DNA of 64,000 nt, from sequence record PP993145.1; one strand, written 5' to 3'. Source of the DNA: Escherichia phage phiP4. Below, piece after piece: positions 4,070-35,473 of this stretch. The position numbers were made by a program, and so were the translations under genes. The notes below the pieces were generated by a model, which saw only the letters and a program-made list of their open reading frames with translations, was not told where the DNA came from and did not search any database. Each line of letters begins with the position of its first letter. Within the stretch, counting starts at the first letter, position 1.

Positions 4070-6919
4070 TTAAATAGTAGCCCAACCAACAGATTGCTCA
4101 CCATTTTCCCCTTCTGCTCTAATCCTGAATCGTATTTTACGATTAATTCCTAAAGCACCAGAGTTTAATAGTGCAAAATCCGCCTTATTATATGTTAATA
4201 GATAGTCATAGGTATAGGCATCCTCTATCCTAATACTACGAAGCATTCTATCCTGAGAATCATGTATTTCTAGAGTATAATAAATTTCTGGAATTATTTC
4301 TTCTTCAGGTATTTTATCCCAAGCAAGTTTCACGTCCGGGCCCACAAATTCGGTTACATCTCCAGAAGCTGTATTAGTTACTCTGAAGTTACTAACTACA
4401 CTCAAGTTTCTAGCAGAGTTAAGATCCACGGAAAGAGTAACAGGAGAACTACGTCTACCGTTAATATCAACAGCACGTAATTCAAAAATAGCTAAACCAG
4501 CAGGCTCACCTATAATCTCCTGAACCATCCTTTCATTAGGATTATTCTCTAATTGCTGAATTATGTAAGGGTCTACATGACCTGAATGAGCTATAGAATA
4601 ATATACTACGTTATTAGTAAGACTAGGTAGCCAAGATAGTTCCCCATTTTTACCTATAGCACCTATCATACCGCCAGGAGTTGGTGTATACTTAAAGTCT
4701 CTAGGAGGAAGAACATTATTACTAATATCTGGAATATCATTACCACTATTATCTACTTGATCAGAGTTGATAAATACATCTTCACCATACTCTTGTAGTG
4801 TTAAATTAATCTTACCATCACGAGTATTTTCTACTTCATCTACTAAGAAGAACTTGTCTTTCCACCCATAACGCTCATAAGTAAAAGCAATCGGGTCATT
4901 TGGCTCTATACCAATAAATTTATATGGTACTGAGAAGCTAAGTGTACGTGAGTACCTGGACTTTTTAAGCTCTCTATCAGCGTAACTACGAGCGGTGTAG
5001 TAGTTAGTAATATTTGCAAAAGATAGCTGAAGTTTTTTATCCAAACCCTTATCTTGTTCTTTAAACTTAGAGTTATAGAATGTAATAGAGTTTGTTTTCC
5101 AACTTAGCGCAGGGTCTACTAGGGATGCTTGTACTGAGTTAAACTTATTTCTACCAGTAGTATCAGATAAGTCTAAGTCCCCATAAGTATCTAGAAAACT
5201 TATCTTCAAAGGAGTTGTAGAATGCTTCTCTACAGTTATTCTATACTCGCCAGATAAGTTATTTATAGCTCCGCCAAAAGAATCCAGTACTCCTTGAACA
5301 TTTTTAAATACTGATTCGGAGGTATCTAATATAGTATTTAACTGAACTACTTGGCGATGTTCAGAAATAGAATCACTCCAACCAACATATCTCCAATAGG
5401 GTTGCCAGCTAACCTGATAAGATTCATCAATTATATCTAGAATTTTTGCTTCTGATATAATCTTTTGTAGTGGGAACTGATCTAGAGTTATATTAGCTCC
5501 ATAACGTTCAGAGGTTAGATAGTCCATGAGCTGCCAGATACCATTAAGGCTGGTTTTATCTGCTTTAACAGACCCATCAGAGTTATATACTTTGACTTTC
5601 TTACCTTGTACTTCGGCACTAATTTCTGGAATTTCAGTTCTATTCTCGTTAATAGTAAATCTAACTACAGCATAGGCTGTGTCTAAGAGCTTATAACGAG
5701 AATCCCAGTATTCTGGACCGTTGCCATTTTGATTCTGTAAATAGAAACCTCTTCTTTTAGCAATATCTACTAGTACTTGAGCTGCTGTCTGGTCTGGTTT
5801 GCCATGAAAAGTCCATATTCTTATATCACCATTACCATCGTTATACTTGTACTCCTGGCCATGAACGGAGGGCTGAGAAGTACTTGTACCCGCAGCTAAT
5901 CTATGCATTGTATCGCCCACTAGTTTCTTACGGCCGAAGCAGGTTCTAGCATTGGAATCCGTTTCATCGAAACAGATCATTGGGCTATCACCAATATAGA
6001 AATCTAGAAATCCGTCAATTTCTCCTTCCGAAAACGCATAGACTACATACACTATATTAGGGTTATTTAGCTCAGTATCTGCAAAAATAGGGATACCAGG
6101 AATTTTCTGAACCCCATATACAACAGGTATGAATTTAGCAGCTAAGTTAAAGTCTAAATCAACTTCTTTAGTTACAGTCTCATAATACTTTTTAAGACTG
6201 TAACTTCTTGATAGCCCAAAAAGTTTCTTCTTGGACTGAAGTTTATAGCGTTCTTCTTTTACCTGATATTTAGCTAATATAGTAGTACTTTTATTAGAGT
6301 GGAAGAAACCATAGTCTTCTTGATATTCAGGACGTTTAGCACCATTTGAAGGCTGAAGAGTCCCATTAACAACTTCAAGACCTCGGTGAGAAGCATCATC
6401 AGTATAACGACCATTCACTCTATCAAAATCATAGAACTGGTTAGAACAGTTCCATGTTATAACAGAAGTTCCTATACCGGAAGTACTAACATTATCCTTT
6501 ATTCCTCCACCAGTAATTTTACCACGAAAGAATAGTAAAGGTCCATTAGTATCAGGATCTACAGGAAGAATATTACCTTCTTCATCAATTATAGCTTGAT
6601 GTATAGTGATAGTTCTATCTAAGAAAGATACTCCATTTTGAACTAGTTTTAATACTTCATCTTCTGCTGTACCAGTTATGGTAAAAGATAGGCTACCAAT
6701 AGATAGTTCACGGTTTTGTTTATGAGAGCCGATACTTTTTACTTTACCAGATCTATATAAGATTCCGTTATAAGTAACATCTCTAAAGTAGTCAGTTAAA
6801 TAAATATAAGTAGCAGCAGAGCCTGATGAACTAGGAAGCTCTAAAGCTATAAGACAAGCTGTTTTTAGCTTGTCATGAGTATTAAGATATGTTTTAGCAC
6901 TATCGAGTATCTGCTTCAT
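4070..6919 (-). CDS. baseplate hub protein (pb3-like), 949 aa
   Basis: 949 aa, same length as T5 pb3; follows distal tail protein gene. Confidence 0.7.
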   Translation of the reverse strand: MKQILDSAKTYLNTHDKLKTACLIALELPSSSGSAATYIYLTDYFRDVTYNGILYRSGKVKSIGSHKQNRELSIGSLSFTITGTAEDEVLKLVQNGVSFLDRTITIHQAIIDEEGNILPVDPDTNGPLLFFRGKITGGGIKDNVSTSGIGTSVITWNCSNQFYDFDRVNGRYTDDASHRGLEVVNGTLQPSNGAKRPEYQEDYGFFHSNKSTTILAKYQVKEERYKLQSKKKLFGLSRSYSLKKYYETVTKEVDLDFNLAAKFIPVVYGVQKIPGIPIFADTELNNPNIVYVVYAFSEGEIDGFLDFYIGDSPMICFDETDSNARTCFGRKKLVGDTMHRLAAGTSTSQPSVHGQEYKYNDGNGDIRIWTFHGKPDQTAAQVLVDIAKRRGFYLQNQNGNGPEYWDSRYKLLDTAYAVVRFTINENRTEIPEISAEVQGKKVKVYNSDGSVKADKTSLNGIWQLMDYLTSERYGANITLDQFPLQKIISEAKILDIIDESYQVSWQPYWRYVGWSDSISEHRQVVQLNTILDTSESVFKNVQGVLDSFGGAINNLSGEYRITVEKHSTTPLKISFLDTYGDLDLSDTTGRNKFNSVQASLVDPALSWKTNSITFYNSKFKEQDKGLDKKLQLSFANITNYYTARSYADRELKKSRYSRTLSFSVPYKFIGIEPNDPIAFTYERYGWKDKFFLVDEVENTRDGKINLTLQEYGEDVFINSDQVDNSGNDIPDISNNVLPPRDFKYTPTPGGMIGAIGKNGELSWLPSLTNNVVYYSIAHSGHVDPYIIQQLENNPNERMVQEIIGEPAGLAIFELRAVDINGRRSSPVTLSVDLNSARNLSVVSNFRVTNTASGDVTEFVGPDVKLAWDKIPEEEIIPEIYYTLEIHDSQDRMLRSIRIEDAYTYDYLLTYNKADFALLNSGALGINRKIRFRIRAEGENGEQSVGWATI

Positions 6920-7530
6920 AGACTTTCCCTCAAGGAAAGTGAAATACCAGAGTAAGTACCATTGTTATTTAATGTAGAACCAAAAGAATCAGCATTCATT
7001 AGCTTAGTTCTAAATAAGATACCATTAAAAACTGGTTTTTCACTACCCGTAGTAGTAATAAATAGGTCAGGGTATAAGGATAAGTTCCATACATTTCCTG
7101 AGCTAGTAAAATTTGTTATTTTATAGACTTTTGGGTGATTTGATAATTTAAATAGATCTCCAGCTTTTGGTAGTCCTGTCAAGGTTCCATTAGTATTTAG
7201 TATAATCTGAGAACCTTTCTGTCCTGCTGGTATAGTAACATTTTTAGTATCACCACGTACTCTAAATGCTTCATACTGAGGTAGAAGTACTTCTAGATAA
7301 TCTCCAGTTCTTTTATATTCTAAAATTTTAGAATCTAGGAACGCATATTCATCTGGGAAAAGTTCCGGGTATGATATATTAATTCCCCAGTATTGAGCAG
7401 ATATTTTAACCTCTTTGACTTTACCATTAGGTAATTCATCACGAATCATAGGGTCATTATCTACTACGTTGACGCTTTCAAAACCTAACCCTGGGTATTC
7501 TGGGTTCGTGTATGGATCTGGTAGTCTCAT
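6916..7530 (-). CDS. distal tail protein (pb9-like), 204 aa
   Basis: 204 aa, immediately downstream of tape measure gene; matches T5 pb9 size and position. Confidence 0.65.
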   Translation of the reverse strand: MRLPDPYTNPEYPGLGFESVNVVDNDPMIRDELPNGKVKEVKISAQYWGINISYPELFPDEYAFLDSKILEYKRTGDYLEVLLPQYEAFRVRGDTKNVTIPAGQKGSQIILNTNGTLTGLPKAGDLFKLSNHPKVYKITNFTSSGNVWNLSLYPDLFITTTGSEKPVFNGILFRTKLMNADSFGSTLNNNGTYSGISLSLRESL

Positions 7531-7639
7531 AGTTAATTTCTCCTCTTTAATAACAATATTATAATAGTATTGGAAAATTTTATCAAGAAATTTTTATTTT
7601 TCCATAAAGAAAAGGAGGACATAAAGTCCTCCTCCAATA

Positions 7640-10600
7640 TTACATATTACCAAGAGATTTAAGGGTGGATCCATTCTCGTTAAGAGCCAGTTCCACGGCA
7701 TCTCTTAAAGCAGTGCTGTTATTCGATGCAAAATCTCTAAAGCTAGCAGCATCCATTGTGCTAATATTCAGAATGATTGGTCTTCCAGAGGTAGTCTTTG
7801 ATCCATCGGAAAGCTGATCATTAGGTGTGGCTTTCATAGGAACCATAGGAGTTACTACTTCGGTACCGTGCTCACCCATTTGATAGCTAACTCCAGGGTA
7901 CATCATACCACCCTCAGCACGCGGAACAAATGAATTGGCATTACCAATACCCTTATCACCACGTAGGTAGGATAATTCTCCTGAACTAGCTTGCATAGAT
8001 ACATCAATGTTCTTCTGTCGCTCACCTAAAGTTAGGTACTGAGTAGTATCTGCTCCAGAATCTGCAATAGAAGACATACCAGATGCAGAAGATGCTTGAG
8101 CAAGAGCTAAGGCACCTGCCAAACCTGCCGCCACCATCAAAGGAATAGAGAACGGGTATGGTACAGCTGTTGCCGCTTGCATTACTGCTACTGCTGTCTG
8201 GATAATAATTTGTTTCTTAGCTGCATCTTGCTGAATTTTTAACTTTTCAGCTTCTAACTTTTTCAGTTTAGCTTTAGATGCTTCAGATTTACCATCTCGT
8301 TTCTGTTCTGCTGCAATAGCCTGGTCAATCGCACTAACCTGCTGACTAGCACTATACTGAATCACAGAAGATACAGCTTGCATACCTGCTGCGATCGTAG
8401 AAGTAGTATCTAAAGACCCCATGGAGAACTGAATCATAGCATTGGTTAAATTACCCATGCTTTGAGCCACAGCAGTTGCTTCGGAGTTTAGCTCAGATAA
8501 CTTAGAGATTGCCTGATCATAAGAAGCCATTCTATTTCCCATATCAGCAAAATCTTTGTCTTTTCCAGATAGTCCAGTTGTAGGAGTATACACAGCACCT
8601 AAAGAAGACCCAACAGAAGCTTGCATTTGAGCATTACGTTGTGCTGTTAAAGCCGATATCTGAGCCCTTGTCTTGGCTATTTCAGCATTCCAACGCATCT
8701 GCTCATTAGCATTACCCTTAGTAAGTTCCTTCATCTGAGTATAAAAGTCTAACTGCATTTCCATTTTTTGCATTTCCCCTGCCAGAGGGAACATGGAAGT
8801 TAGGGTATTTTCAAAGGCTTCTTGCCTTTTACTGGTCATTTCAGCTTGCTGGTCCTGACGGAATTTCCATATTTCACGTTCAATTTGGGCTTGAGAACGT
8901 CTAGACTGTTCAGCCTCTTTCTGTTTGTCCGCTTGTTTTGTATACCATTCGTACTTCTCTTTTTCAATGGTCAATTCAAGATTTAACTGCGCTAGACGAT
9001 ACTGAGTATCTGTCATAGTACGGTTATTTAAGAGAGCTATCTCACGATCTACACCAAGAATTTTATCTGTGTAATCCTTGACCTTCTTCTGAGCTTCCAT
9101 ACCCTGATTGGTAAGTTTAAGTTTCTCCAGCTGAATTTTTTCAATTTCTTTCTCAACAGCTTTATTTCCCTGGTTTGTTTGAAGAACACGGCGTAAAGCA
9201 GCTTCTTGCTCTTCTAACTGTTGGAGTTCTAAACGCCTACCGGCTTCCTGTGCCTTTTCTTTATCTTTAGTTTGGTTGTATACGTCAGCTATCTTCTGTT
9301 GAACTGCTAACTGGTTCTTAGTCTCATTACCAGTTAGTTTAACGTACTCAGATAAGGCCTGAGACGCAGTTTTCATTTCAGACAGAGTGTTAAACCCTAA
9401 GTTGAGACTTTTAACATACTCATCCGCACTCTTACCAGTTCCTGCGGAGAGAGATTCTACATTTCTAATTACCTCTTCAAAAGTTGCACTAGTTTTAGCA
9501 GCGGTATCTGTACTATTAGCTATATTTTGAAAGTCGTTAGCTAAATCACTAGACGTTTTCTTAGTTTGGTTATATGCTTTTTGTTGCTCTGTCAGACCCT
9601 TTAGAGCAGCAGAATTAAAATCATATACAGCATCTGGGTCATATACATCTTTCTGTAGATTAATCTGTTTCTGGAACTCCGGATTAGCCTTTGCAGCAGC
9701 AGCTCCTGCAGTTTGGAAGGCTGATTTCCAAGCAGTAAGATTCTCTGTAGAATCTTCTACTTCTTTATCTAATCTACTTACTTGTAGTCCCATAGCGGCA
9801 GTTTCTGCTACAAATTGTTTATTAGCTTCCGAAGCACCTGCTGCTGCAAGACCAACAGGAATACCTTCACCAACTTGACGTATAGCTAATTTTGTATAGA
9901 AATCTGCTTGTTCCATTCGTTTATCGAACTCAGATTTTAGCTTATTACGCTTATCAAGAGATTCCTTATACATATCTAGAGCTTTATTATAGCCTTCTTC
10001 AGAAGCAGCCAAACTTAAAGCAACAGCACCAACGTTGGTAGGGTCTATCTGTCTATTAGTTTTTTCTTGAGCTCTAGCTGCTTCAGCAGATACAGAAGCC
10101 TGAGAAGTATAAAATACTGTGTTGATAGCATCAATTACTGGTCCTAAGTACTTAGCAGCAGCTTGTTGTATTGTTCTTAGTGCAGCATCTGCGTTAGCAG
10201 CAAACTGCTCCCACGGAGTAGCACGTAAAACTTCATCTAAGTAACCAAAACGTTTAGTAGATTCTGCTATAACAGCATTAGCATACGCTTGCTGTTTCTG
10301 GAAGGTAGTAAGGCTATTAATATTATATGTTATACCTGTGTTTGCAGCATTTAACTGTTTAACGTAATCAGCATAAGCATCGTTAAGACGAATAGTAACA
10401 CCAAGTTCATCCAGAAGTTCGATTTCTTGTTTAGATACACCCTTAATTACACGGTTAAGTGCATCAGTCATATCAACACCAAGAACAGCAGCAGCACGAC
10501 GAGCTACTAAACCAAATTTATTAAGTTGTTCGGCATCAAATCCATAAGCGGACGCTGAAGATGCCTGTCTCATTGCTTCTTCAAAAGAAATAGCATATCC

Positions 10601-26881: not shown

Positions 26882-28546
26882 TTACGCGAAAAATTTGCCG
26901 TTTTTAAAGTCAATCAAAGTGCGCTGCCCGTTCGCATAGGTAATTAAATGCGTTTGCGTCCAACTTGACGCGCCAACGTTGTAACCCATATCCAGACTAC
27001 CAGCAACGCCAGCGGTATAAACGCCGCCGTAAATGCTGGCGGTGTGGGTGTGCCCCGTGTTTAATTTGCCCAATTTCTTAAACTGCTTCGGATTACCACG
27101 GCTGCCGTTAATGCCGTTGTGACCGTGTACGCCGCATTCAATGCCTGCAATTTTAAATGATTGGTCAGTGGTCAGGAAAATTGCGTTAAACTCGCAACCT
27201 GCGACGTCACGCAGCGCATAATCCAGCACGTTGAAAGTATCGTCATGATTACCGATTGCCGCGTAAATCGCAGCATTAAGGCGGTGATATAGTTCCGCAT
27301 TGGCTGGATCGTCTTTAATGTTAGCATTGCGATCATCAAGCCAACGGGATAACGCCAAATCGTGGTTTGATTCGACAATGATCGTTTGACTAAAATCGCG
27401 CTCCATTGACTCCAGCACGCGCCCGGTATCGATCAGATCATCCAGAACTTTATCACGTCCGGCTGCATACTGTTTCGCTAGGAATACACCAGAGGCGCGA
27501 TTATGATGATTGCGCGATGTAAAATCATGCACGTCATGCACAAACTGATATTTAGGCTTGAGAATATCAAGCAAGCTGTTTTCGCCAGCCCATGACGCTG
27601 CGGCGCACTCCTCATCTAATTTCTCGGCGTGTACGTCGCCATATTGCAAGCCTAAAACATGCCCCGACGTTTCAAAACATCCGGCGGGAGTGGCGCAAAT
27701 ATTCAAATCGTAAAACATGCCGCTTTCGTCCATCGTTTCAAGCTGGCGAACAAAAAATTCCCCGTCCTCGTCGAACTCAACAATCAGCGCACCGTAATTA
27801 TGCAGCGCCTCCGCTTTTTGCCCTGCTTTTTGCTGAATGTAGTTTTTGAGCGTTGCCGTTCCGGTTGAGTACATGCGGCGTACTACTTCACCTTTGAGAG
27901 CTGGCACGCTTTCAGCGGTGATTTTAGCGTGACCAATTGCCAGACCTTCCAGATTAAGCGCGGTTGCAGTTTCAGCAAATCCAGATAGCGGATAATCTGC
28001 CGTTGGCAAAACATTAATTTCAGCCATGAAAGCAAAACGGCGATTGTTTAAAAACACGTTTTTGCTGCAAATATATTTATCAAACGCGGAATCATATTTT
28101 ACACCGTCTGCGCCTTCTCCGTTCTGAAAACCGTTTTTATTATAAATATACTTAGAAACAAGCAAATCAGCGCCGATAAATTTAGCATATTGTTCAAGCG
28201 AGGCTAAAAAGTTTTTATGCGGGAAAGTATTGTTCTGAATTGATGTAATAATAAAGCGTTTGCCCTGTTTTACTTCCCACTGTTCCACCGTGCTGGAAAT
28301 AATTCCAGCCGCCTCGGGGCGCTCGTCGTTTTTAATGGCTTTTGCTACTTTCGCCGCTTTTGGTTTTGCTGGTTTATTTGCTTCCAGCCAATCACAAATC
28401 GCGGTCGAGTGTTTCGTTGTATCGTAGACCGCTTTTGATATATCGTCGCAGACTTCCAGCTTAGTAGCGCGCAGACGTTTACCGTAGAAATTAAAGTCAG
28501 CGGCCAGCTTCAGGATAACGGTTTGTTTTTCTGCGGAAATAATCAT
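26882..28546 (-). CDS. A1: A1 protein (calcineurin-like metallophosphoesterase), pre-early
   Basis: GDVHAE and GNHD metallophosphatase motifs; start set at internal Met with GGAG RBS (ORF track extends to 28636). Confidence 0.6.
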   Translation of the reverse strand: MIISAEKQTVILKLAADFNFYGKRLRATKLEVCDDISKAVYDTTKHSTAICDWLEANKPAKPKAAKVAKAIKNDERPEAAGIISSTVEQWEVKQGKRFIITSIQNNTFPHKNFLASLEQYAKFIGADLLVSKYIYNKNGFQNGEGADGVKYDSAFDKYICSKNVFLNNRRFAFMAEINVLPTADYPLSGFAETATALNLEGLAIGHAKITAESVPALKGEVVRRMYSTGTATLKNYIQQKAGQKAEALHNYGALIVEFDEDGEFFVRQLETMDESGMFYDLNICATPAGCFETSGHVLGLQYGDVHAEKLDEECAAASWAGENSLLDILKPKYQFVHDVHDFTSRNHHNRASGVFLAKQYAAGRDKVLDDLIDTGRVLESMERDFSQTIIVESNHDLALSRWLDDRNANIKDDPANAELYHRLNAAIYAAIGNHDDTFNVLDYALRDVAGCEFNAIFLTTDQSFKIAGIECGVHGHNGINGSRGNPKQFKKLGKLNTGHTHTASIYGGVYTAGVAGSLDMGYNVGASSWTQTHLITYANGQRTLIDFKNGKFFA

Positions 28547-28635
28547 AATAATAAACTCCATTAAAGGGATAAGGTTAATAACGGCAATATTGCCAAATAT
28601 AACGCCTCCAATAATAGGCGTTATAATTTGCAACA

Positions 28636-28881
28636 TTAATTTAAAGGCATCAGGCTAGAACTAACACCACAAACAACGGCGGCAATAAAACAAATCAGGC
28701 CCAAACGCTTCGCTAACTTAGATTTGCGTTTAAAATAATACGAATCTAAATCATTTTGAAAATATGCGAACAATAACGAGGCCGCCATAATAAATAAGCC
28801 TAGAATCAACGATTCAGTAGGGTAAAAGATCATTTTAATAACTCCAGTTAAAGGGAAATTATAGTGGGGAATAATCCCCAC
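28636..28881 (-). CDS. small membrane protein, 81 aa
   Basis: Two predicted TM helices. Confidence 0.4.
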   Translation of the reverse strand: MGIIPHYNFPLTGVIKMIFYPTESLILGLFIMAASLLFAYFQNDLDSYYFKRKSKLAKRLGLICFIAAVVCGVSSSLMPLN

Positions 28882-28890
28882 TATTTAAAT

Positions 28891-29298
28891 TTATTCACCT
28901 GCGGCCTGTTTTACTTCATCGGCAACGCCTAACAACTGCGCCACGGCGTCCAGCGTTTCCAGCTTCGCGCTTTCAAGGCTTGCCAGATCATCGGCGTCCT
29001 TGATAATGCCGGAATCAATAGCGTGTTTTGCAATCACTCGCACGTAATGAGCTTTGCGGATTGAACTACCGCCGCCAACTTTGCGCGGCTTATCGCTTTT
29101 TTGATATGCTTTCGCGCTGGTCAATTTTGAGCGAACTGACACGGGAGAAGCCGCGCCAACTGCTTTCGCAATCTCTTTCAGGCCGTCGCTATTTGCGAAA
29201 TCTAAACCGTTTTCATTGATTAACTGCTGATACATGGTAACAGCTTTTTGGGTGTTTTCTTCGTTCCAAGAAAATTTTGCGGTTTTTGCGTTAGTCAT
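28891..29298 (-). CDS. A2: A2-like pre-early DNA-binding protein, 135 aa
   Basis: Size and position upstream of A1 as in T5; basic C-terminal region. Confidence 0.45.
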   Translation of the reverse strand: MTNAKTAKFSWNEENTQKAVTMYQQLINENGLDFANSDGLKEIAKAVGAASPVSVRSKLTSAKAYQKSDKPRKVGGGSSIRKAHYVRVIAKHAIDSGIIKDADDLASLESAKLETLDAVAQLLGVADEVKQAAGE

Positions 29299-29650: not shown

Positions 29651-29883
29651 AATATAAACTCCAGTTTATTTGATGGATTGTTCCGCATTATCTGCTAGAA
29701 AATACTAGCAGATAATAAGAAGAAATCCGCTCGCCATTATAAAATCAATTTAAGGAACTCCACGCGGGCCGCTATATCCCAGTTAGGGGGCGGGATGCAT
29801 TATGGTAAGCACCGACCGTCAAATTGTATCAAGTTATCGCTCTTATCGAACTGGGTACATCTTAAAGCCTATCGGCTAGGTTG

Positions 29884-30087
29884 TCAAACTATTTTTTGCA
29901 GTTTTTTATGATTTTCCTTCAGGTCGATCATAATATTTCGCCAGATCATTTCTAGTCCTTGCTGGCGGCCTTTCTTGTACTGCTCAAATCGATATTTTAC
30001 CGATCTTTGCGCTACTGTCAATAAATTTTTTGTTTTGCTATCCAGTGCCTTGCTAGGTTTACCAGTGATCAATAAAGTTTGTTTCAT
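29884..30087 (-). CDS. hypothetical basic protein, 67 aa, bracketed by 17-bp inverted repeats
   Basis: ORF flanked by tcttaaagcctatcggc (29855-29871) and its reverse complement (30118-30134). Confidence 0.3.
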   Translation of the reverse strand: MKQTLLITGKPSKALDSKTKNLLTVAQRSVKYRFEQYKKGRQQGLEMIWRNIMIDLKENHKKLQKIV

Positions 30088-30780
30088 ATCGTCGATTCCT
30101 TATAATGAATAAGTTTACCGCCGATAGGCTTTAAGATATACCCAATTTTTAAAGAGCGCGGCGGTAAACTCCCCGCCGTGTAGTTCGTCATTGCCGCCCT
30201 ACGAGATAAATAATAACAAACAACGAAAAAGGCGCAACCTTATATTTGTAAAGAAATGTAAAGACAAACGCCACCGGACACCGTGCGGCGACCTGGGCGC
30301 GGCGCATTAAAATTAAAAGAAACGGGCGCGCGAATACCACAAAACACAGCAGATAGGCAAGTAATTTTTTCATTTATATTTGCTTTGCCCTACTTGACAA
30401 AATCTAAAAAGCTCGTGGCAGCGATAAACGGCTTATCCCCTTATGATGGGATGGCTAAAAACTTTATTGCGTTCTGGGGCGTTTTAGGCCGCCTATTTTC
30501 GACTTAACAAATCATTAACAAACGCAAAATTGAAAAATAGTTGGAAAAGGTCTTGACTTTTAAAAATCAAGATCAAATGACTTATTTTATAAAATAAATT
30601 AATTGACTTTTATTTGTTAGTATGCATCGGAAAGATAGCAGACTATTAATCACTAGAAGGATGATCATGCTGGTGGATTGTAACGGCCTGAATTATTAGC
30701 AGACTATTAATCACGGAAAAACTCATTAGCCAACTAACTATTTCATGATATATAATATACTTATAAATTAATGAGAAATA

Positions 30781-30863
30781 ATAACTATAAGAAATCATCA
30801 CCATTATAATAATAACTATAAGAAATCATCACCATTATAATAATAACTATAAGAAACTATCGG
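30781..30863. repeat. 31-bp tandem direct repeat, about 2.7 copies
   Basis: ataactataagaaatcatcaccattataata repeated head-to-tail. Confidence 0.8.
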
Positions 30864-30890
30864 CATAAGTGAGAACCACTATCATTTAAG

Positions 30891-30998
30891 TTATCCACAA
30901 TGTTATCCACAGCACAAAATAATTTGACACGATAGGCGGCGATATAAGGGCTTATCCACAGACTTATCCACAGGTTATCCTACTGTATAAATATACAG
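30891..30998. promoter_or_regulatory. DnaA-box cluster (4-5 TTATCCACA-like boxes) including left 40-bp inverted repeat arm (30959-30998)
   Basis: ttatccaca, gttatccacag, cttatccacag x2, ggttatcct read directly. Confidence 0.7.
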
Positions 30999-31263
30999 GG
31001 TAAAAAGGCAGTGTTAACGACTGCAATCAATTTTAAGCGGCCTAAAACGCTTTCTAACGAGCTAAACGCTGTGGGGTAATATTAAAGTAAAGACCCAACG
31101 CGGTGCCCTGGTGGCTTCGCCGTGTTTTGCTCTTTACCGTACCGCTGCGCGGTTATCATAAAAATAGGCGTTAGGCAAGGAAAATAAAAAAGTAAAATAA
31201 TCTTTGCCTATGCTAGAAAATTACCCTTATCATTTACTCACCGATTAACGAGAGGGCCAACAA

Positions 31264-32256
31264 ATGAGGCTATATAAACCAGATAACGCAACCGTCTTAA
31301 AAGGTGCGCTGCGTAACCTGCTGGATGGTAGCAGAACAACCAGCATCCGGCATTTTGTTTTCAATATTGAAACTATTCATCAAAACTTTTTTGATGAATA
31401 TGACGCTTATAATATGAATAGTTTTCTACCGTTATATAAACAAGGGGCAACGCTTGTTTTGTATAATCAGGATTATCAATTGCTCACTAGTCGGGGGCCG
31501 GATACTGATTTCATAATCGTAAAAGGCAACACAGTAAAAGCCTATGATACTGGGGCGGGCTTAGAAGTTTTTTCAATAGAAAACTATGAGGCTAATGATA
31601 ATGATCTTTATGACGTAGAAAATTTTCTTGATTCATTTTGGCGTTATTTATCAGTTGGCTGGAATCGGTCGGATTCTGATGGGTATCGTTTTGCGGCTAT
31701 AATGGCCTTCGATGATAACGGTAATTTTTTGCTACCGTCGGAACTATGCCCGTATGTTTATAATGATCTGATACAGGAGGCCGGTTTTACTTTCTGGAAA
31801 GATGAGGATCAGATTATTAACAGTATAGAAAAACATGCTGTAAATTCTAACACTCAAAGCGTTATCACTCAAACTACTGAAAATAAAGGAAAAAACACTA
31901 TGACCAAGATCGCTAACATCGTTGCCGCCAATAAGTCTGCCGTTGTAAACGCTGCAAAACTGGAAGCGGGTAAAATTGCACTAACTCAAATCACGAAAGT
32001 AGCGGCTAAAAAAGCACCGTTCATGATCAAAGGTTATATCGATACGCCGATTGGTCGCGTAGTAATCGCTAACCTGCTGAGTGTAGCGGTTGACCAGTAC
32101 GCCCCGAGTAACCAGAAAGCGAAAGCGGTAGCGGGGGCGGCTATGGAAGCGGCAATGTTGGAAATGGTGCAAAGTTTTAACATCGCTGAGATGATCGATG
32201 AAATGGTAAAAGGTATCGATATTTCTACTTTTACCAATAACACCGAAAACGAGTAA
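31264..32256 (+). CDS. hypothetical protein, 330 aa
   Basis: First gene of plus-strand cassette between the inverted repeats; no recognisable motif. Confidence 0.45.
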   Translation: MRLYKPDNATVLKGALRNLLDGSRTTSIRHFVFNIETIHQNFFDEYDAYNMNSFLPLYKQGATLVLYNQDYQLLTSRGPDTDFIIVKGNTVKAYDTGAGLEVFSIENYEANDNDLYDVENFLDSFWRYLSVGWNRSDSDGYRFAAIMAFDDNGNFLLPSELCPYVYNDLIQEAGFTFWKDEDQIINSIEKHAVNSNTQSVITQTTENKGKNTMTKIANIVAANKSAVVNAAKLEAGKIALTQITKVAAKKAPFMIKGYIDTPIGRVVIANLLSVAVDQYAPSNQKAKAVAGAAMEAAMLEMVQSFNIAEMIDEMVKGIDISTFTNNTENE

Positions 32257-32377
32257 TAACTAGCCCATTGTAAAGTTTTGTAAAGGCCGCCTTTTATGGT
32301 GGCCTTTTTTGTTATAATGCCTTTACACCGTTTGAGGACGGTTGAAAATTTTCCCAAAAAATTTTGGAGGCTTAAAA

Positions 32378-32607
32378 TGGTTGCTTTTTCTTCTTCTGAC
32401 GCTCTTTTCACTGGAAAAGGCTGGGTATCAAATCGCTGGATTATTCAGGAAATGGTGCAAGAGTACGGCATTGCTAAAACTTATACTACCATTCAGGCGC
32501 TTTATGATAATGATCAAATCGATCAGCAAACGGCGGGCTTTTTACTGGATACCCTGAAGGCGGAACACTGTACCAAAAAACAAGCCGCTAAAATTGTTTT
32601 AATGTAA
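32378..32607 (+). CDS. hypothetical protein, 76 aa
   Basis: Start set at Met preceded by GGAGG RBS (ORF-track start 32296). Confidence 0.4.
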
Positions 32608-32656
32608 TTAATAACGGGGCGAAAGTATCGCCCCACTAACTAGGGGAGTATCACAA

Positions 32657-32839
32657 ATGATTATTTTTCGAGCTTTTTTAGCGGGTATCTTGGGAGCTAT
32701 TTTGACCCTTTTCGCCACCGCTTACGGTATTCAGGATTCCTATTGCGGTTTGGTAAACACAAAACCTATGGTTACTATAGGCGCTGGTATCGCTGTATTT
32801 TCTTATCTGCTGGGCTGCATGAATAGTAAAGGAGAATAA
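32657..32839 (+). CDS. small membrane protein, 60 aa
   Basis: Two hydrophobic segments, RBS present. Confidence 0.4.
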   Translation: MIIFRAFLAGILGAILTLFATAYGIQDSYCGLVNTKPMVTIGAGIAVFSYLLGCMNSKGE

Positions 32840-32841
32840 AA

Positions 32842-33054
32842 ATGATCCGCAACGTTTCTCTTGCACGTTCGAAAGGTTTTAAGCTGGTGGACGCTAACAC
32901 GTTCGAGCGTCCAGATTGCAAGATCGAATATGTAGCACGTAATAAAAATGCCTTTCGTGTTACCGAGAAAAAATTTGATAAGCGCGGCAACGTGATCCTT
33001 GAAACGGTTAGGCACTTTGCCACCTTTTACGCTGCATTTCGTGGGGTACTATGA
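32842..33054 (+). CDS. hypothetical protein, 70 aa
   Basis: RBS AAGGAG upstream. Confidence 0.4.
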   Translation: MIRNVSLARSKGFKLVDANTFERPDCKIEYVARNKNAFRVTEKKFDKRGNVILETVRHFATFYAAFRGVL

Positions 33055-33290
33055 AAAGCGTTATTGTTGTTATCCTTGCAATGGCTGGCGGTTTTATCGC
33101 CACCTTATTTAAGAATGATCCCACTTCGTTGGGTATCTTTATGCTTTTATCGGGCTATCTGATCGGGAGGTTGTCAAATGATAGCGCAAATTAAAACGGC
33201 TTTTCGTTTTTGGGGCGTCCTGCCTTCAATTGGTTTTATTCTGATAATCATTAGTCAGCTAATGATTATCGTTGGCGTTATCTGGGAGCT

Positions 33291-33641
33291 ATGCAAATGA
33301 TCATTTACGAGGGCAATCGCTTTGTTGCTAATTGCCGCCCGGCATTGTTAGCAAACTATTTAAACCAGCTTTCACCAGCTTATAAGGGCGTTATTAATAT
33401 TTACGAGGGCAAGGCGCATTATAAAATCAATGCGGTCGTTGCCCGTGAACTAGCGTTTCAATTTTTAACCTTTGCATCTTGCGACGTTCAGGTTATGGGT
33501 GAGGCGTTAATTGCAGAAAATGAAGACGATTTTATTAATATTTTCCGTAAGGTATGCACCGAGCGCCTGATAATCAAAGGCGCATATATTCAATCCACGG
33601 CTGATAGTATTGAAACAGCGTTTCGAAAGGTGGCGCAATGA
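33291..33641 (+). CDS. hypothetical protein, 116 aa
   Basis: ORF; last sizeable gene of plus-strand cassette. Confidence 0.4.
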   Translation: MQMIIYEGNRFVANCRPALLANYLNQLSPAYKGVINIYEGKAHYKINAVVARELAFQFLTFASCDVQVMGEALIAENEDDFINIFRKVCTERLIIKGAYIQSTADSIETAFRKVAQ

Positions 33642-33793
33642 AACGATGGTTTAATCACTGGTACAAGCGGTTTTTAGTACGCCGTCGCAAGTCTAGGCAT
33701 CAAGATGAGTGGCGGGAGTGGGCAAAGCGTAACGGTTGCCCACTAATATAATAATCACGGGGCGCAACTATCAGGGAGTGCCCCCAATTTTCA

Positions 33794-34370
33794 AATGATA
33801 ATCATTCTCATTTGACCGCGCCCGCGATGGTTAGCCTGCTAATGGTTCGGGTGTTACGTGTCGCCTTGTGTGATCGTTAGCTCGCTAACTAATTTTCAAG
33901 CCTCCTCCAATTTTGCCCTTGTTTTAGTATCCCCACCAAAATTAAACGCGTTAGAATGCGTTTGAGAGCGTTTTAACGCTATATTAGAATTATTCGCTGC
34001 GTAGGAATACTGTATATTTATCCAGTAGGATAAGCTGTGGATAAGTCTGTTAATAACGCCTCAAAATGGCTAGGGTTTTGTCAAGTCAAATCGTGCTGTT
34101 AATAAGTCTGTGGATAACTTAAATAACAGTGTTTCTCACTTCCGTTCTTAAATGAGAATCATTATCATTTGTATTTCACTATCTAACTAATAATCATTCC
34201 ACTATCTAACTAATAATCATTCCACTTTCTAAATGAGAATCATTCCGCTTTTTAAATGAGAATCATTTCACTTTTTAAATGAGATTGATTCTCATTTCAC
34301 TTTCTAAATGCGAATTATTATCATTCTCATTCCGCTTTTTAAATGAGAATGATTCTTATTATCATTCGTA
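33794..34370. promoter_or_regulatory. array of at least 7 Fur-box-like AT-rich palindromes (AAATGAGAATCATT family)
   Basis: 33794-33814 aaatgataatcattctcattt matches 16/19 of GATAATGATAATCATTATC; 34148-34166 matches 15/19; further copies 34231-34366. Confidence 0.45.
34010..34049. repeat. right 40-bp inverted repeat arm with DnaA boxes (partner of 30959-30998)
   Basis: Reverse complement equals left arm with 3 mismatches; extra tgtggataac box at 34103-34112. Confidence 0.75.
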
Positions 34371-34374
34371 TTTA

Positions 34375-34396
34375 GCGCAGAGCAATTGCTCTGCGC
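34375..34396. repeat. perfect 22-bp palindrome gcgcagagcaattgctctgcgc
   Basis: Read directly. Confidence 0.85.
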
Positions 34397-34400
34397 TTTT

Positions 34401-35000
34401 GTGCAAATCCGACATTGCTCCACGGGTGTTACGTGCGGGCGTGTATGTGCGAATCCGACAATTTTTGGTAGTGTGCAAATCCGACCCGAAAAATTTTTAT
34501 AGTGTGCAAATCCGACAATGAATTTTCCTAAAAACTCCAGCAATCCGATGCTGCGCATCAATCCTGTGGAATTAGCTAGAGTATGTGCAAATCCGACATG
34601 GGTTTATTTGTGCGAATCCGACAAGATTTTTGTGACTTCGATTGGAGGGTGTGTGATTGTGTGGGTTTGGGGAGAAGTTGAGAGAGCGAGAGAAAATAAG
34701 AGGAGAAGCTAGAGGGGCAGCAGTGGTGGCGTGCAACGCCTGATTTGCTGCGTTTTTGGGGAGAGTTGAAAAGATTTGGGTTAATTTGAGATTAGTGGAG
34801 ATAAAGTAAAATTTTATTAGCAAAATGGGGCAAAATAGCTTGACAAGTGAAAATTTCTGTGGCTCTAAAAACTCAGGCAATCACGGGCCTTCGGCCCGAA
34901 ATAATGCTGCCATTTTCAGGAGATTATATGTTCCTAAAAACTTAGGCAATTGTGCAAATCCGACCATAAATTTCTAGAAACACAATGTGCAAATCCGACA
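34401..35000. repeat. eight dispersed copies of GTGC(A/G)AATCCGAC(A/C) motif plus AACCGCC and ttcctaaaaac repeats; injection-stop-signal-like noncoding region
   Basis: Copies at 34401, 34447, 34473, 34503, 34585, 34610, 34953, 34987. Confidence 0.75.
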
Positions 35001-35473
35001 GTAATTTCTGGAAATGTGTTTTCAAAAAATGTCTCCTAGAAATAACCGCCCTCCCCATAACCGCCCTGTATTAAACCGCCTAGTATATGTTCCTAGAAAC
35101 TTGGGAGAACCGCCCACTAGAAGCGTGAGATCTCGTGAGTATTTCGTGAGAACTCTGGAGTTTCTAGGAAAGTGTTGTGCCATCCTAGCAGATGAGCGGC
35201 AACCGGTGTATCATCTTGAATGTAAATTATGTGGTCAAAAGTTTTACCTTTAATTTAAGTATAAGATCCCCCAAGATTGGAAGAGATGCTCCACCCCTGG
35301 GATACGAATTGCGTGAGATGGTACAAAACTTCTTAAGATTTCCCTAGTCCTTCGACAAGCTACGGGGGAAATAGAAGTTTCCCATCCACCATCCGTATCC
35401 GGGTGGATCTCTTTATTCTATGTTATTTCATAGAGTTATTATAACATGCAGAAATCATAACGTCAAGTAGAGT

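What the first reader, a model, noticed from the sequence alone, without database searches (positions are those of the whole stretch)
30891..34120. 3-kb plus-strand gene cassette bracketed by 40-bp inverted repeats that carry DnaA boxes
The 40-bp arms at 30959-30998 and 34010-34049 are reverse complements with 3 mismatches, each containing TTATCCACA-type boxes, and more boxes lie just outside. They flank the only plus-strand coding block of this region: a 330-aa protein plus five or six small, mostly membrane, proteins. This could be an invertible or mobile module, a DnaA-titrating element, or part of the injection-stop machinery. None of the enclosed proteins has a recognisable function.
Basis: partly seen in the sequence, partly recalled or inferred. 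Interest (0 to 1): 0.65.

Follow-up and report, generated by a model that had tools for sequence, protein, structure and literature searches.

The report
T5 pre-early operon, DnaA-box repeats
This is the already published pair of ~131-bp inverted repeats with paired DnaA boxes that flank the dispensable pre-early gene block of T5-like phages, next to where DNA injection pauses; it is not a switch or a mobile element, though each repeat also ends in a LexA-type operator that I could not find reported.

Summary
The window is a T5-like phage (Tequintavirus). The cassette is the rightward pre-early operon (T5.011–T5.015 homologues) in the terminal repeat.

The arms are the published IRC-spacer-IRD and IRD'-spacer-IRC' repeats (Wang 2005; Davison 2015, 2020). 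Their full extent is 30867-30998 and 34010-34141. All six exact TTATCCACA boxes in the 64 kb lie in the arms, arranged as four double DnaA boxes with 3-bp spacing (0.08 expected).

Tests run here:
- **No homogenisation.** The two arms are as similar within a genome (0.767) as between genomes (0.764).
- **No orientation variant among close relatives.** A synthetic inverted junction was contiguous in 0 of 544 phage records; the native junction was contiguous in 121 of 538.
- **An old inversion.** Klebsiella Sugarland-type phages and Pectobacterium phage My1 carry the operon inverted between the same arms.
- **No mobility signs.** No recombinase or transposase domain, and no target-site duplication.

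Observations I did not find reported: every arm ends in a near-consensus LexA-type palindrome next to the DnaA boxes, conserved as far as Vibrio T5-like phages. Its central dinucleotide is AA or TT.

Best reading: the arms are arrays of host-protein binding sites belonging to the injection-stop region. Verdict: already known; moderate-to-low interest.

The parts
30867..30998 (.). Left (A2-proximal, 'P') arm = IRC-spacer-IRD of T5
   Evidence: Inverted repeat with 34010-34141. Maps to T5 AY543070 6098-6228. Named in Davison 2020.
30891..30911 (+). Outer double DnaA box (TTATCCACA atg TTATCCACA)
   Evidence: At a fixed offset in 60 arms.
30952..30972 (+). Inner double DnaA box (TTATCCACA gac TTATCCACA), followed 2 bp later by a weak third box TTATCCTAC (30975-30983)
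30981..31000 (.). LexA-type palindrome TACTGTATAAATATACAGGG at the cassette-facing end of the left arm
   Evidence: One of only two sites in 64 kb within 3 mismatches of the 20-nt SOS-box consensus (0.01 expected). Core positions are invariant in 60 arms.
30999..31100 (.). Degenerate inward extension of the inverted repeat (P-type inner flank), with a hairpin at 31008-31024
31204..31233 (+). Sigma-70-type promoter of the operon (TTGCCT-18-TATCAT)
   Evidence: Corresponds to the promoter annotated at 6411-6489 in T5, just upstream of T5.011.
31264..32256 (+). 330-aa protein, T5.011 homologue, DUF7566
   Evidence: PF24450 E=2e-112 and phrog_4263. 78% identical to T5.011. Toxic and nucleoid-disorganising in E. 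coli.
32282..32307 (+). Intrinsic-terminator-like hairpin after the T5.011 homologue
   Evidence: T5 has an annotated terminator at the same place.
32377..32607 (+). 76-aa T5.012 homologue
   Evidence: phrog_5145. 97% identical to T5.012.
32657..32839 (+). 60-aa T5.013 homologue; the T5 counterpart is annotated with two transmembrane domains
   Evidence: phrog_5607. 93% identical to T5.013. T5 annotation. Reported toxic.
32842..33054 (+). 70-aa T5.014 homologue, in the family labelled 'endonuclease nicking abasic sites generated by host Ung'
   Evidence: phrog_4227 E=2e-49. RefSeq label on T5.014. The naming conflicts with the paper's 'T5.015'.
33051..33300 (+). Two overlapping small hydrophobic ORFs (47 aa at 33051-33194; 40 aa at 33178-33300)
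   Evidence: phrog_19184 for the 47-aa ORF.
33291..33641 (+). 116-aa homologue of locus tag T5.015 (unknown function by family)
   Evidence: phrog_4379. 91% identical to T5 8297-8641.
33638..33751 (+). 37-aa basic ORF, uncertain
   Evidence: No family hit.
33910..34009 (.). Degenerate inward extension of the inverted repeat (D-type inner flank), with an inward-reading hairpin plus T-run at 33963-33944
34008..34027 (.). LexA-type palindrome TACTGTATATTTATCCAGTA at the cassette-facing end of the right arm. Read inward, it has CTGG in place of CTGT.
34010..34141 (.). Right (iss-proximal, 'D') arm = IRD'-spacer-IRC' of T5, the start of the injection-stop region
   Evidence: Maps to T5 9411-9542, inside the annotated iss at 9140-10149.
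34036..34056 (-). Inner double DnaA box of the right arm (TTATTAACA gac TTATCCACA)
34097..34117 (-). Outer double DnaA box of the right arm (TTATCCACA gac TTATTAACA)
34142..35007 (.). Adjacent injection-stop repeat arrays: a 23-nt-period AAATGAGAATCATT array at 34150-34366, and TGTGCAAATCCGAC x8 at 34400-35007
   Evidence: Homologous to the T5 iss region.

Best explanation
The region is the rightward pre-early (host-takeover) operon in the terminal repeat of a T5-like phage. It is bracketed by the two copies of the conserved IRC-spacer-IRD repeat.

Each copy is a fixed array of binding motifs for host DNA-binding proteins:
- two double DnaA boxes with 3-bp spacing, each made of one strong and one weaker member;
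- a weak third box;
- a near-consensus LexA-type operator at the end that faces the cassette.

The right copy opens the injection-stop region. By homology with T5, first-step DNA transfer pauses shortly to its right.

Most likely, host DnaA loads on these arrays as the first ~8% of the genome enters, possibly together with LexA or another dimeric protein on the palindrome. The right-arm complex would then be part of what arrests or holds the DNA until the A1 and A2 proteins are made. The left copy would be an auxiliary second site.

The enclosed genes are dispensable accessory toxins expressed from their own promoter.

The two arms resemble each other because they share the same motif array. 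They do not pair, and they do not recombine as a switch. Recombination in their shared ~47-nt inner block has inverted the operon at least once in family history.

**Shown:** the anatomy, conservation, motif statistics, lack of homogenisation, and clade-fixed orientation.
**Inferred:** protein binding, and the role in injection stop.
For: **Identity with the published T5 repeats:**

**Motif statistics:** six exact boxes, all in the arms. Four double boxes against 0.08 expected. Two LexA-consensus matches against 0.01 expected.

**Double-box architecture:** it matches the in vivo DnaA preference for boxes 2-3 bp apart (PMC11317965).

**Conservation of the array:** 53 of 60 arms keep all four boxes at fixed offsets. 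58 of 60 have at least one near-consensus member in each pair. Palindrome positions 2-5 and 16-17 are invariant in 60 arms.

**Family-wide composite:** present in My1 and Sugarland and in Vibrio T5-like phages, although A2 identity falls to about 40%.

**The iss-proximal arm is more constrained:** D-D identity 0.93 against P-P 0.87; in the spacer, 0.93 against 0.78.

**No concerted evolution:** 0.767 within genomes against 0.764 between genomes.

**Arms are independent of operon orientation and content:**. Arm-to-arm distance ranges from about 1.6 to 4.1 kb.

**Host precedent:** overlapping DnaA and LexA sites at uvrB p3/DARS1 (PMC6015884).
Against: - No experiment shows DnaA or LexA binding to these sites. 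PMC10644984 states that functional studies are lacking.
- The membrane-DnaA stop model is a proposal in a preprint.
- A T5 mutant deleted from hegG to 017 is viable, with small plaques. Because the left arm lies between hegG and 011, the deletion should remove it. The exact endpoints are in figures I could not read.
- 'Type 4' relatives lack the left arm. So at least the left arm is not essential.
- T5 plates on recA hosts (my own knowledge), so LexA cleavage cannot be a required step.
- The left-arm palindrome of Markadamsvirinae ends in GG instead of TA. In this window the right-arm palindrome carries CTGG. Both weaken the LexA match.
Confidence: 0.5

Rival explanations
1. Transcriptional control elements. 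The arms sit at the two ends of the rightward operon. The left arm lies between the divergent pre-early promoters. DnaA and LexA bound there would repress or insulate pre-early transcription, for example by blocking read-through into the not-yet-injected DNA or antisense entry into the operon. They would not be stopping DNA transfer.
For: - The left arm lies between the leftward and rightward promoters annotated in T5.
- Weak outward-reading promoter-like hexamers lie just inside both arms, one overlapping the palindrome: 31017-30990 on -, and 33962-33990 on +.
- Inward-reading hairpins sit just inside each arm.
- DnaA and LexA jointly repress uvrB p3, recN and dinJ in E. coli (PMC6015884).
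Against: - The experimentally characterised promoter of gene 011 is about 200 bp from the left arm, so the arm does not overlap it.
- The promoter-like hexamers are ordinary consensus hits (20 found against 13.4 expected in the region).
- The arms stay the same when the operon is inverted.
- The iss-proximal arm, which has no gene to its right for about 1.3 kb, is the more conserved one.
Confidence: 0.2
2. The palindrome is the operator of a phage-encoded dimer, most plausibly A2, not of host LexA. The arms would then be where A1/A2 act to restart transfer or to shut off pre-early genes.
For: - A2 is a dimeric dsDNA-binding protein required for second-step transfer.
- The palindrome is a symmetric site with invariant half-sites.
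- It occurs next to the injection-stop region in every clade examined.
Against: - The half-sites CTGTAT/ATACAG are identical from Escherichia to Vibrio phages, while A2 drops to about 40% identity.
- The half-sites coincide exactly with the gammaproteobacterial SOS-box consensus.
- A2 has no recognisable DNA-binding domain or solved relative to support the idea.
Confidence: 0.2
3. Recombination anchors. The conserved arms mainly serve as homology blocks that let co-infecting T5-like phages exchange, and occasionally invert, a variable accessory-gene cassette. The binding motifs would be secondary.
For: - Cassette content and length vary widely between conserved arms: 1.6-4.1 kb, with the T5.011 gene absent or its N-terminal half replaced in several relatives.
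- The operon is inverted in Sugarland/IME260 and My1.
- The Sugarland A2-proximal arm joins a P-like spacer to a D-type inner flank.
Against: - Homology anchors do not need invariant DnaA-box register or an invariant palindrome.
- The arms are not homogenised.
- The spacer is only about 55% identical between the two arms, while each is conserved orthologously.
- Only one of the two expected inversion junctions is clean.
Confidence: 0.1
4. A programmed invertible segment or a transposon-like mobile cassette bounded by terminal inverted repeats.
For: A gene block flanked by long inverted repeats. Opposite orientation in two other clades.
Against: - No recombinase or transposase domain in any of the eight ORFs.
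- A synthetic inverted junction is contiguous in 0 of 544 records, against 121 of 538 for the native junction.
- 76 Klebsiella-phage records are colinear with the opposite arrangement, so orientation is fixed by clade.
- No target-site duplication: outside flanks are ...CTATCGGCAT and CCGTTCTTAA....
- The arms stay at one locus, and stay when the content changes.
- No copy in 5,426 E. coli genomes.
Confidence: 0.02

Closest known systems
IRC-spacer-IRD / IRD'-spacer-IRC' repeats of the T5 first-step-transfer region (Heusterspreute 1987; Wang 2005; Davison 2015 and bioRxiv 10.1101/866236)
   Same: Same element. Arms of about 131-132 bp; eight DnaA or DnaA-like boxes in pairs 3 bp apart; the left copy lies between the divergent pre-early operons; the right copy opens the injection-stop region; the gene content between the arms varies.
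   Different: Nothing essential. This phage has six consensus boxes and two TTATTAACA variants; T5 has seven sites in all.

Added here:
- the LexA-type palindrome;
- the roughly 100-nt degenerate inward extension;
- the test showing no concerted evolution;
- the clade-level inversion of the operon.
Double DnaA boxes of the E. coli DnaA regulon, and uvrB p3/DARS1 (Stringer et al. 2024, PMC11317965; PMC6015884)
   Same: Two same-orientation 9-mers 3 bp apart, typically one strong and one weaker member. In the inner cluster a LexA-type box overlaps a DnaA box, as at uvrB p3/DARS1.
   Different: The phage arrays are not copies of a host locus (no BLAST match). There are four double boxes per terminal repeat, in two oppositely oriented arms about 3 kb apart. 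All boxes of an arm point the same way. Binding is untested.
Phage invertible segments (Mu G, P1 C, Salmonella Hin)
   Same: A gene block in a phage or enterobacterial genome flanked by inverted repeats. Opposite orientations exist among relatives.
   Different: No recombinase gene and no enhancer. Orientation is fixed within clades. The arms are about 77% identical and are not homogenised. The block carries its own promoter, so inversion would not switch expression.
oriC / datA-type DnaA box clusters
   Same: Clusters of DnaA boxes in two opposed arrays, with mixed strong and weak sites.
   Different: Davison reports that the T5 replication origins map near the genome centre. Neither an unwinding element nor IHF dependence was examined here. 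The phage destroys the host chromosome, so a titration role has no obvious purpose.

Membership tests
T5 IRC-spacer-IRD / IRD'-spacer-IRC' repeat pair | Two ~131-bp copies in inverted orientation inside the terminal repeat, homologous to the T5 copies | tested here: met
   Arms of 132 nt. BLAST to T5 6098-6228 (81%) and 9411-9542 (92%). Terminal-repeat context.
T5 IRC-spacer-IRD / IRD'-spacer-IRC' repeat pair | Eight DnaA or DnaA-like boxes in four pairs, members 3 bp apart, at fixed positions | tested here: met
T5 IRC-spacer-IRD / IRD'-spacer-IRC' repeat pair | Right copy immediately precedes the DRE/DRD repeat arrays of the injection-stop region | tested here: met
   Arrays at 34150-34366 and 34400-35007, colinear with the T5 iss.
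Functional DnaA binding site (double DnaA box) | Two 9-mers in the same orientation 2-3 bp apart, at least one near consensus | tested here: met
Functional DnaA binding site (double DnaA box) | DnaA occupancy in vitro or in vivo | not testable with these tools
   Needs EMSA, footprinting or ChIP. PMC10644984 says no functional studies exist.
LexA (SOS) box | CTGT-N8-ACAG palindrome with an AT-rich centre, close to TACTGTATATATATACAGTA | tested here: met
   2 and 3 mismatches in the window. 1 mismatch in the commonest D-arm form, with invariant ACTG...CA. Vibrio-phage versions keep the half-sites. The consensus itself is recalled from my own knowledge.
LexA (SOS) box | Overlaps or closely follows a promoter that it represses | tested here: inconclusive
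   Only weak consensus promoter-like hexamers lie nearby. The characterised promoters lie elsewhere.
LexA (SOS) box | LexA binding; de-repression on SOS induction | not testable with these tools
   No report found in the searchable library.
Site-specific invertible element | Recombinase gene in or beside the segment | tested here: not met
   No recombinase domain in the eight ORFs, nor in the five A2-side proteins scanned (A1 and four between it and the left arm).
Site-specific invertible element | Both orientations among close relatives or within a population | tested here: not met
   Inverted junction 0 of 544 records; native junction 121 of 538. Within-population reads were not available.
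Transposon / IS with terminal inverted repeats | Transposase, target-site duplication, multiple insertion sites | tested here: not met
   No transposase. No direct repeat at the outside flanks. Single conserved locus. Absent from E. coli genomes.
Intrinsic terminators | GC-rich hairpin followed by a T-run within each arm | tested here: not met
   The terminator scan finds none inside 30867-30998 or 34010-34141. The nearest are at 31008-31024 and 33963-33944.
Replication origin (oriC-like) | DnaA box array next to an AT-rich unwinding element; origin activity | not tested
   Davison reports that the T5 origins map near the genome centre. No search for an unwinding element was done.

The most novel reading that the evidence does not exclude
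Each arm is a composite DnaA-LexA nucleoprotein site, and host LexA is an unrecognised partner of DnaA in the T5 first-step-transfer and injection-stop complex. The composite is conserved across Demerecviridae from Escherichia to Vibrio phages. The two opposed arrays may bridge, looping out the accessory operon and holding the incoming DNA. The recurrent AA/TT flip at the palindrome centre would then be a trace of hairpin or cruciform extrusion at this site.
Probability: 0.2. Interest if true: 0.7.

Novelty: already known. Interest (0 to 1): 0.3.

Why it matters
How T5 stops DNA transfer at 8% of its genome has been unresolved for more than fifty years. The DnaA-box repeats are the only concrete sequence candidate, and they remain untested.

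The finding itself adds nothing to what is published. The follow-up work sharpens the experiments in four ways:
- The boxes have exactly the double-box geometry that DnaA needs in vivo.
- The iss-proximal arm is the constrained one.
- The arms do not need to pair with each other or keep a particular operon orientation.
- A second host factor (LexA, or a dimer with the same specificity) should be tested alongside DnaA.

It also settles that the cassette is not a switch or a mobile element.

Tried and rejected
- **Structure of the 330-aa DUF7566 protein.** The 120 best homologues listed were all at least 86% identical. AlphaFold2 on a 15-sequence alignment gave mean pLDDT 37.6. I ran no fold search, because the model is meaningless.
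- **Fur boxes.** The AAATGAGAATCATT repeats resemble the Fur 7-1-7 motif. Only one iss site is within 3 mismatches of the 19-nt consensus. Kept as a weak side note.
- **A2 as a LexA-like protein.** No Pfam domain and no solved relative.
- **Arms copied from a host locus such as uvrB/DARS1.** No match in 5,426 E. coli genomes.
- **Concerted evolution or DNA-DNA pairing of the arms.** Rejected: identity is 0.767 within genomes and 0.764 between genomes.
- **Arms as terminators.** Rejected.
- **Transposon or invertase.** Rejected.
- **Clean reciprocal inversion junctions in Sugarland, IME260 and My1.** Only the A2-proximal junction is clearly swapped. The other is ambiguous, and in My1 both flanks look alike.
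- **Davison 2015 review.** Not held in the library, so I relied on the 2020 preprint.
- **Which ORF is the Ung-dependent nickase.** The conflict between T5.014 and T5.015 could not be resolved from the text.


Full report
**What the window is**

The segment 30600-34500 matches 532 phage records. The best hits are Salmonella phages SE11 and SE8 (95%) and Spc35 (93%). All top hits are T5-like phages, and in Spc35 the match falls inside the left terminal repeat, annotated as first-step-transfer (FST) DNA.

Against T5 itself (AY543070), the plus-strand block corresponds to T5.011-T5.015, within the block annotated T5.011-T5.017 at 6495-9157. The annotated injection stop signal (iss) spans 9140-10149. 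Upstream, on the minus strand, lie the A1 homologue (26882-28636), the A2 homologue (28891-29298) and the other leftward pre-early genes.

The finding is therefore the rightward pre-early operon of a Tequintavirus-like phage together with its two flanking repeat regions.

**Checking the observation**

They are the inner part of 132-nt arms at 30867-30998 and 34010-34141. A further ~100 nt of degenerate inverted similarity runs into the cassette.

All six exact TTATCCACA sites in the 64 kb are in the arms. One-mismatch boxes are not enriched overall (21 found, 18.7 expected), so the signal lies in the exact boxes and their arrangement. The pattern TTATNNACA-N3-TTATNNACA occurs four times, two per arm, against 0.08 expected.

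The block is the only plus-strand set of ORFs of at least 100 aa between 15 and 50 kb.

**It is already described**

Davison's preprint (10.1101/866236) uses the nomenclature of Wang et al. 2005 and builds on the 1987 sequence of the region. It describes:
- a 131-bp IRC-spacer-IRD and a 131-bp IRD'-spacer-IRC' that are inverted copies of each other;
- eight DnaA or DnaA-like boxes 'always in pairs separated by 3 bp';
- conservation across 25 T5-like phages;
- highly variable gene content and distance between the copies.

It proposes that membrane-bound DnaA binding to these boxes stops injection. The BF23 genome paper notes the same features and says that experimental studies of their role are lacking. 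The window's arms map onto the T5 copies at 6098-6228 and 9411-9542.

**The enclosed genes**

- The 330-aa protein is DUF7566 (PF24450, E=2e-112) and phrog_4263. It is 78% identical to T5.011.
[quoted passage not shown] Its function is unknown.
- The 76-, 60- and 70-aa ORFs are 97%, 93% and 94% identical to T5.012, T5.013 and T5.014. The 116-aa ORF is 91% identical to locus tag T5.015.
- The 70-aa family (phrog_4227, and RefSeq T5.014) carries the label 'endonuclease nicking abasic sites generated by host Ung'. Mahata et al. call that protein T5.015. I could not resolve which ORF is meant.
- Annor et al. 2026 report that a T5 mutant deleted from hegG to 017 is viable with small plaques. The whole cassette is therefore dispensable. 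So, presumably, is the left arm, which lies between hegG and 011; the exact endpoints are in figures I could not read.
- A structure prediction of the 330-aa protein failed, with mean pLDDT 37.6.

**Is it an invertible or mobile module?**

I fetched 40 loci around A2 from viral contigs and mapped the arms, cassette and flanks in each. All the loci with at least 86% A2 identity that reach the repeats have the window's order and orientation; one locus (L036) ends before them. Arm-to-arm distances range from about 1.6 to 4.1 kb.

A direct database test gave a clear answer. A synthetic junction joined the left flank and left arm to the reverse complement of the cassette's right end. It was contiguous in 0 of 544 matching records. 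The native junction was contiguous in 121 of 538.

None of the ORFs has a recombinase or transposase domain. The sequences just outside the arms are not direct repeats. The arm has no match in 5,426 E. coli genomes. So it is neither a switch nor a mobile element.

On a deeper timescale, however, the operon has been inverted.
- **Sugarland and IME260 (Klebsiella).** The DUF7566 homologue is 36% identical (E=5e-43). A homologue of the 116-aa protein lies downstream of it. Both are on the same strand as A2 and point toward the A2-proximal arm.
- **My1 (Pectobacterium).** My1_019 has the same orientation.
- **In both clades** the arms are in place, and a small divergent operon faces the iss-proximal arm.
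- **Stability.** 76 Klebsiella-phage records are colinear with the IME260 arrangement. Orientation is fixed by clade.

The A2-proximal arm of Sugarland and IME260 combines a P-like spacer with a D-type inner flank. That is what a crossover in the shared ~47-nt inner block would produce. The other junction is ambiguous, so the breakpoints are only half supported. The preprint does not mention an inversion.

**How the arms evolve**

I aligned both arms of 30 genomes.
- Identity between the two arms of one genome is 0.767. Between arms of different genomes it is 0.764.
- Orthologous arms are far more alike: P-P 0.867 and D-D 0.932. In the spacer the values are 0.78 and 0.93, against 0.55 between P and D arms.

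There is therefore no gene conversion and no selection for the arms to stay complementary. That argues against cruciform or stem-loop pairing, and against frequent recombination. The resemblance is concentrated in motif blocks, and the iss-proximal arm is the more constrained.

53 of 60 arms keep all four boxes (2 or fewer mismatches) at fixed offsets. Each double box has a strong member (b1 or b4) and a weaker member facing the spacer. E. coli DnaA binds in vivo almost only to such double boxes, 2 or 3 bp apart (Stringer et al. 2024). This strengthens the inference that these are real DnaA sites.

**A LexA-type palindrome**

Every arm ends, on the cassette side, in TACTGTATA-(AA or TT)-TATACAG. 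D arms continue with TA. P arms of T5-type phages continue with GG.

The commonest D form differs at one position from the 20-nt E. coli SOS-box consensus, which I recall from my own knowledge. In the window these are the only two sites within 3 mismatches of that consensus (0.01 expected). Positions 2-5 and 16-17 are invariant in all 60 arms.

The same composite, a DnaA-box cluster plus a CTGTAT-N4-ATACAG palindrome, is present in:
- My1 and Sugarland;
- the Vibrio T5-like phages D51, 70E35-1 and KIT04, where only the central 4 nt differ.

A2 identity is only about 40% in the Vibrio phages.

Davison's preprint does not mention LexA or SOS. Two library searches found no paper linking T5 with LexA. 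Overlapping DnaA and LexA sites do have a host precedent at uvrB p3/DARS1.

Whether LexA or a phage dimer such as A2 binds the palindrome is open. A2 has no recognisable domain. T5 plates on recA hosts (my own knowledge), so LexA cleavage cannot be a required step.

**An unexplained detail**

The central dinucleotide of the palindrome is AA in 47 arms and TT in 13. It is never AT or TA. Parsimony on neighbourhood trees needs at least nine state changes.

Possible causes are recurrent minute inversion at a hairpin, reshuffling of two old alleles by mosaic recombination, or selection for an A-tract. Inversion of the whole cassette would swap the palindromes between arms. It would not flip their centres.

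**Conclusion**

The arms are best read as conserved arrays of host-factor binding sites that belong to the injection-stop region. In that reading the left arm is an auxiliary, dispensable copy, and the cassette is a variable set of accessory host-takeover genes.

The switch, transposon and terminator readings are rejected.

New here:
- the family-wide LexA-type operator;
- the match to the double-DnaA-box rule;
- the absence of concerted evolution;
- the ancient inversion of the operon between the arms.

All functional statements remain inferences until binding and phage-mutant experiments are done.

Noticed in passing
window 30981-31000 and 34008-34027; also L045 7854 and 11805, L046 2234 and 6167, L044 5609 and 9121, L048 5730 and 8827, L049 6995: A near-consensus LexA-type palindrome (TACTGTAT..ATACAGTA) closes both arms beside the DnaA boxes. 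It is conserved in T5-like phages of Escherichia, Salmonella, Klebsiella, Pectobacterium and Vibrio. I found no report of it in the searchable library.
   Followed up: yes
window 30989-30990 and 34017-34018 (palindrome centres); 60 arms in L003-L041: The central dinucleotide of the palindrome is AA (47 arms) or TT (13), never AT or TA. Parsimony needs at least nine state changes. This may be minute inversion at a hairpin, or reshuffling of two old alleles.
   Followed up: partly
L040, L041/L042, L046 (Sugarland, IME260) and L045 (My1): The DUF7566 operon is inverted between the same arms relative to T5-type phages, and a small divergent operon of tiny membrane proteins faces the iss-proximal arm. 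The 2020 preprint does not describe this as an inversion.
   Followed up: yes
window 33792-33813 and 34150-34366; outer 24 nt of both arms (30867-30890, 34118-34141): The palindromic repeat family AAATGAGAATCATT(A/C)TCATTT has a core that resembles the Fur 7-1-7 box with a symmetric T-to-G change. Only one copy is within 3 mismatches of the 19-nt Fur consensus. It is intriguing because the T5 receptor FhuA is Fur-regulated (my own knowledge), but the lead is weak.
   Followed up: partly
window 30777-30869: Three tandem copies of a 31-nt unit (AATAATAACTATAAGAAATCATCACCATTAT) abut the outside of the left arm.
   Followed up: no
window 34400-35007: Eight copies of TGTGCAAATCCGAC at irregular spacing, matching the DRD repeats of the T5 injection-stop region. 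What binds them is unknown.
   Followed up: no
window 29838-29876 and 30120-30158: A second inverted repeat (39 nt, 85%) brackets the 67-aa DUF7416 ORF at 29884-30087, which occupies the position of T5.008/hdi.
   Followed up: no
window 32842-33054 versus 33291-33641; T5 NC_005859 8086-8298 versus 8300-8644: Annotation conflict. RefSeq and PHROG 4227 attach the 'Ung-dependent abasic-site nickase' label to the 70-aa T5.014. The paper that characterised the protein calls it T5.015, and that locus tag is the 114-aa neighbour.
   Followed up: partly
L003, L032/L033, L039 (gene absent); L004, L037, L038 (C-terminal part only): The T5.011/DUF7566 gene is missing in some close relatives. In others only its conserved C-terminal ~145 codons match, which suggests a swapped N-terminal domain (compare the phrog_16673 hit to residues 183-329).
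   Followed up: no
window 31008-31024 and 33944-33963: Hairpin-plus-T-run motifs lie just inside each arm. They read inward, so they could stop transcription entering the cassette from outside.
   Followed up: no
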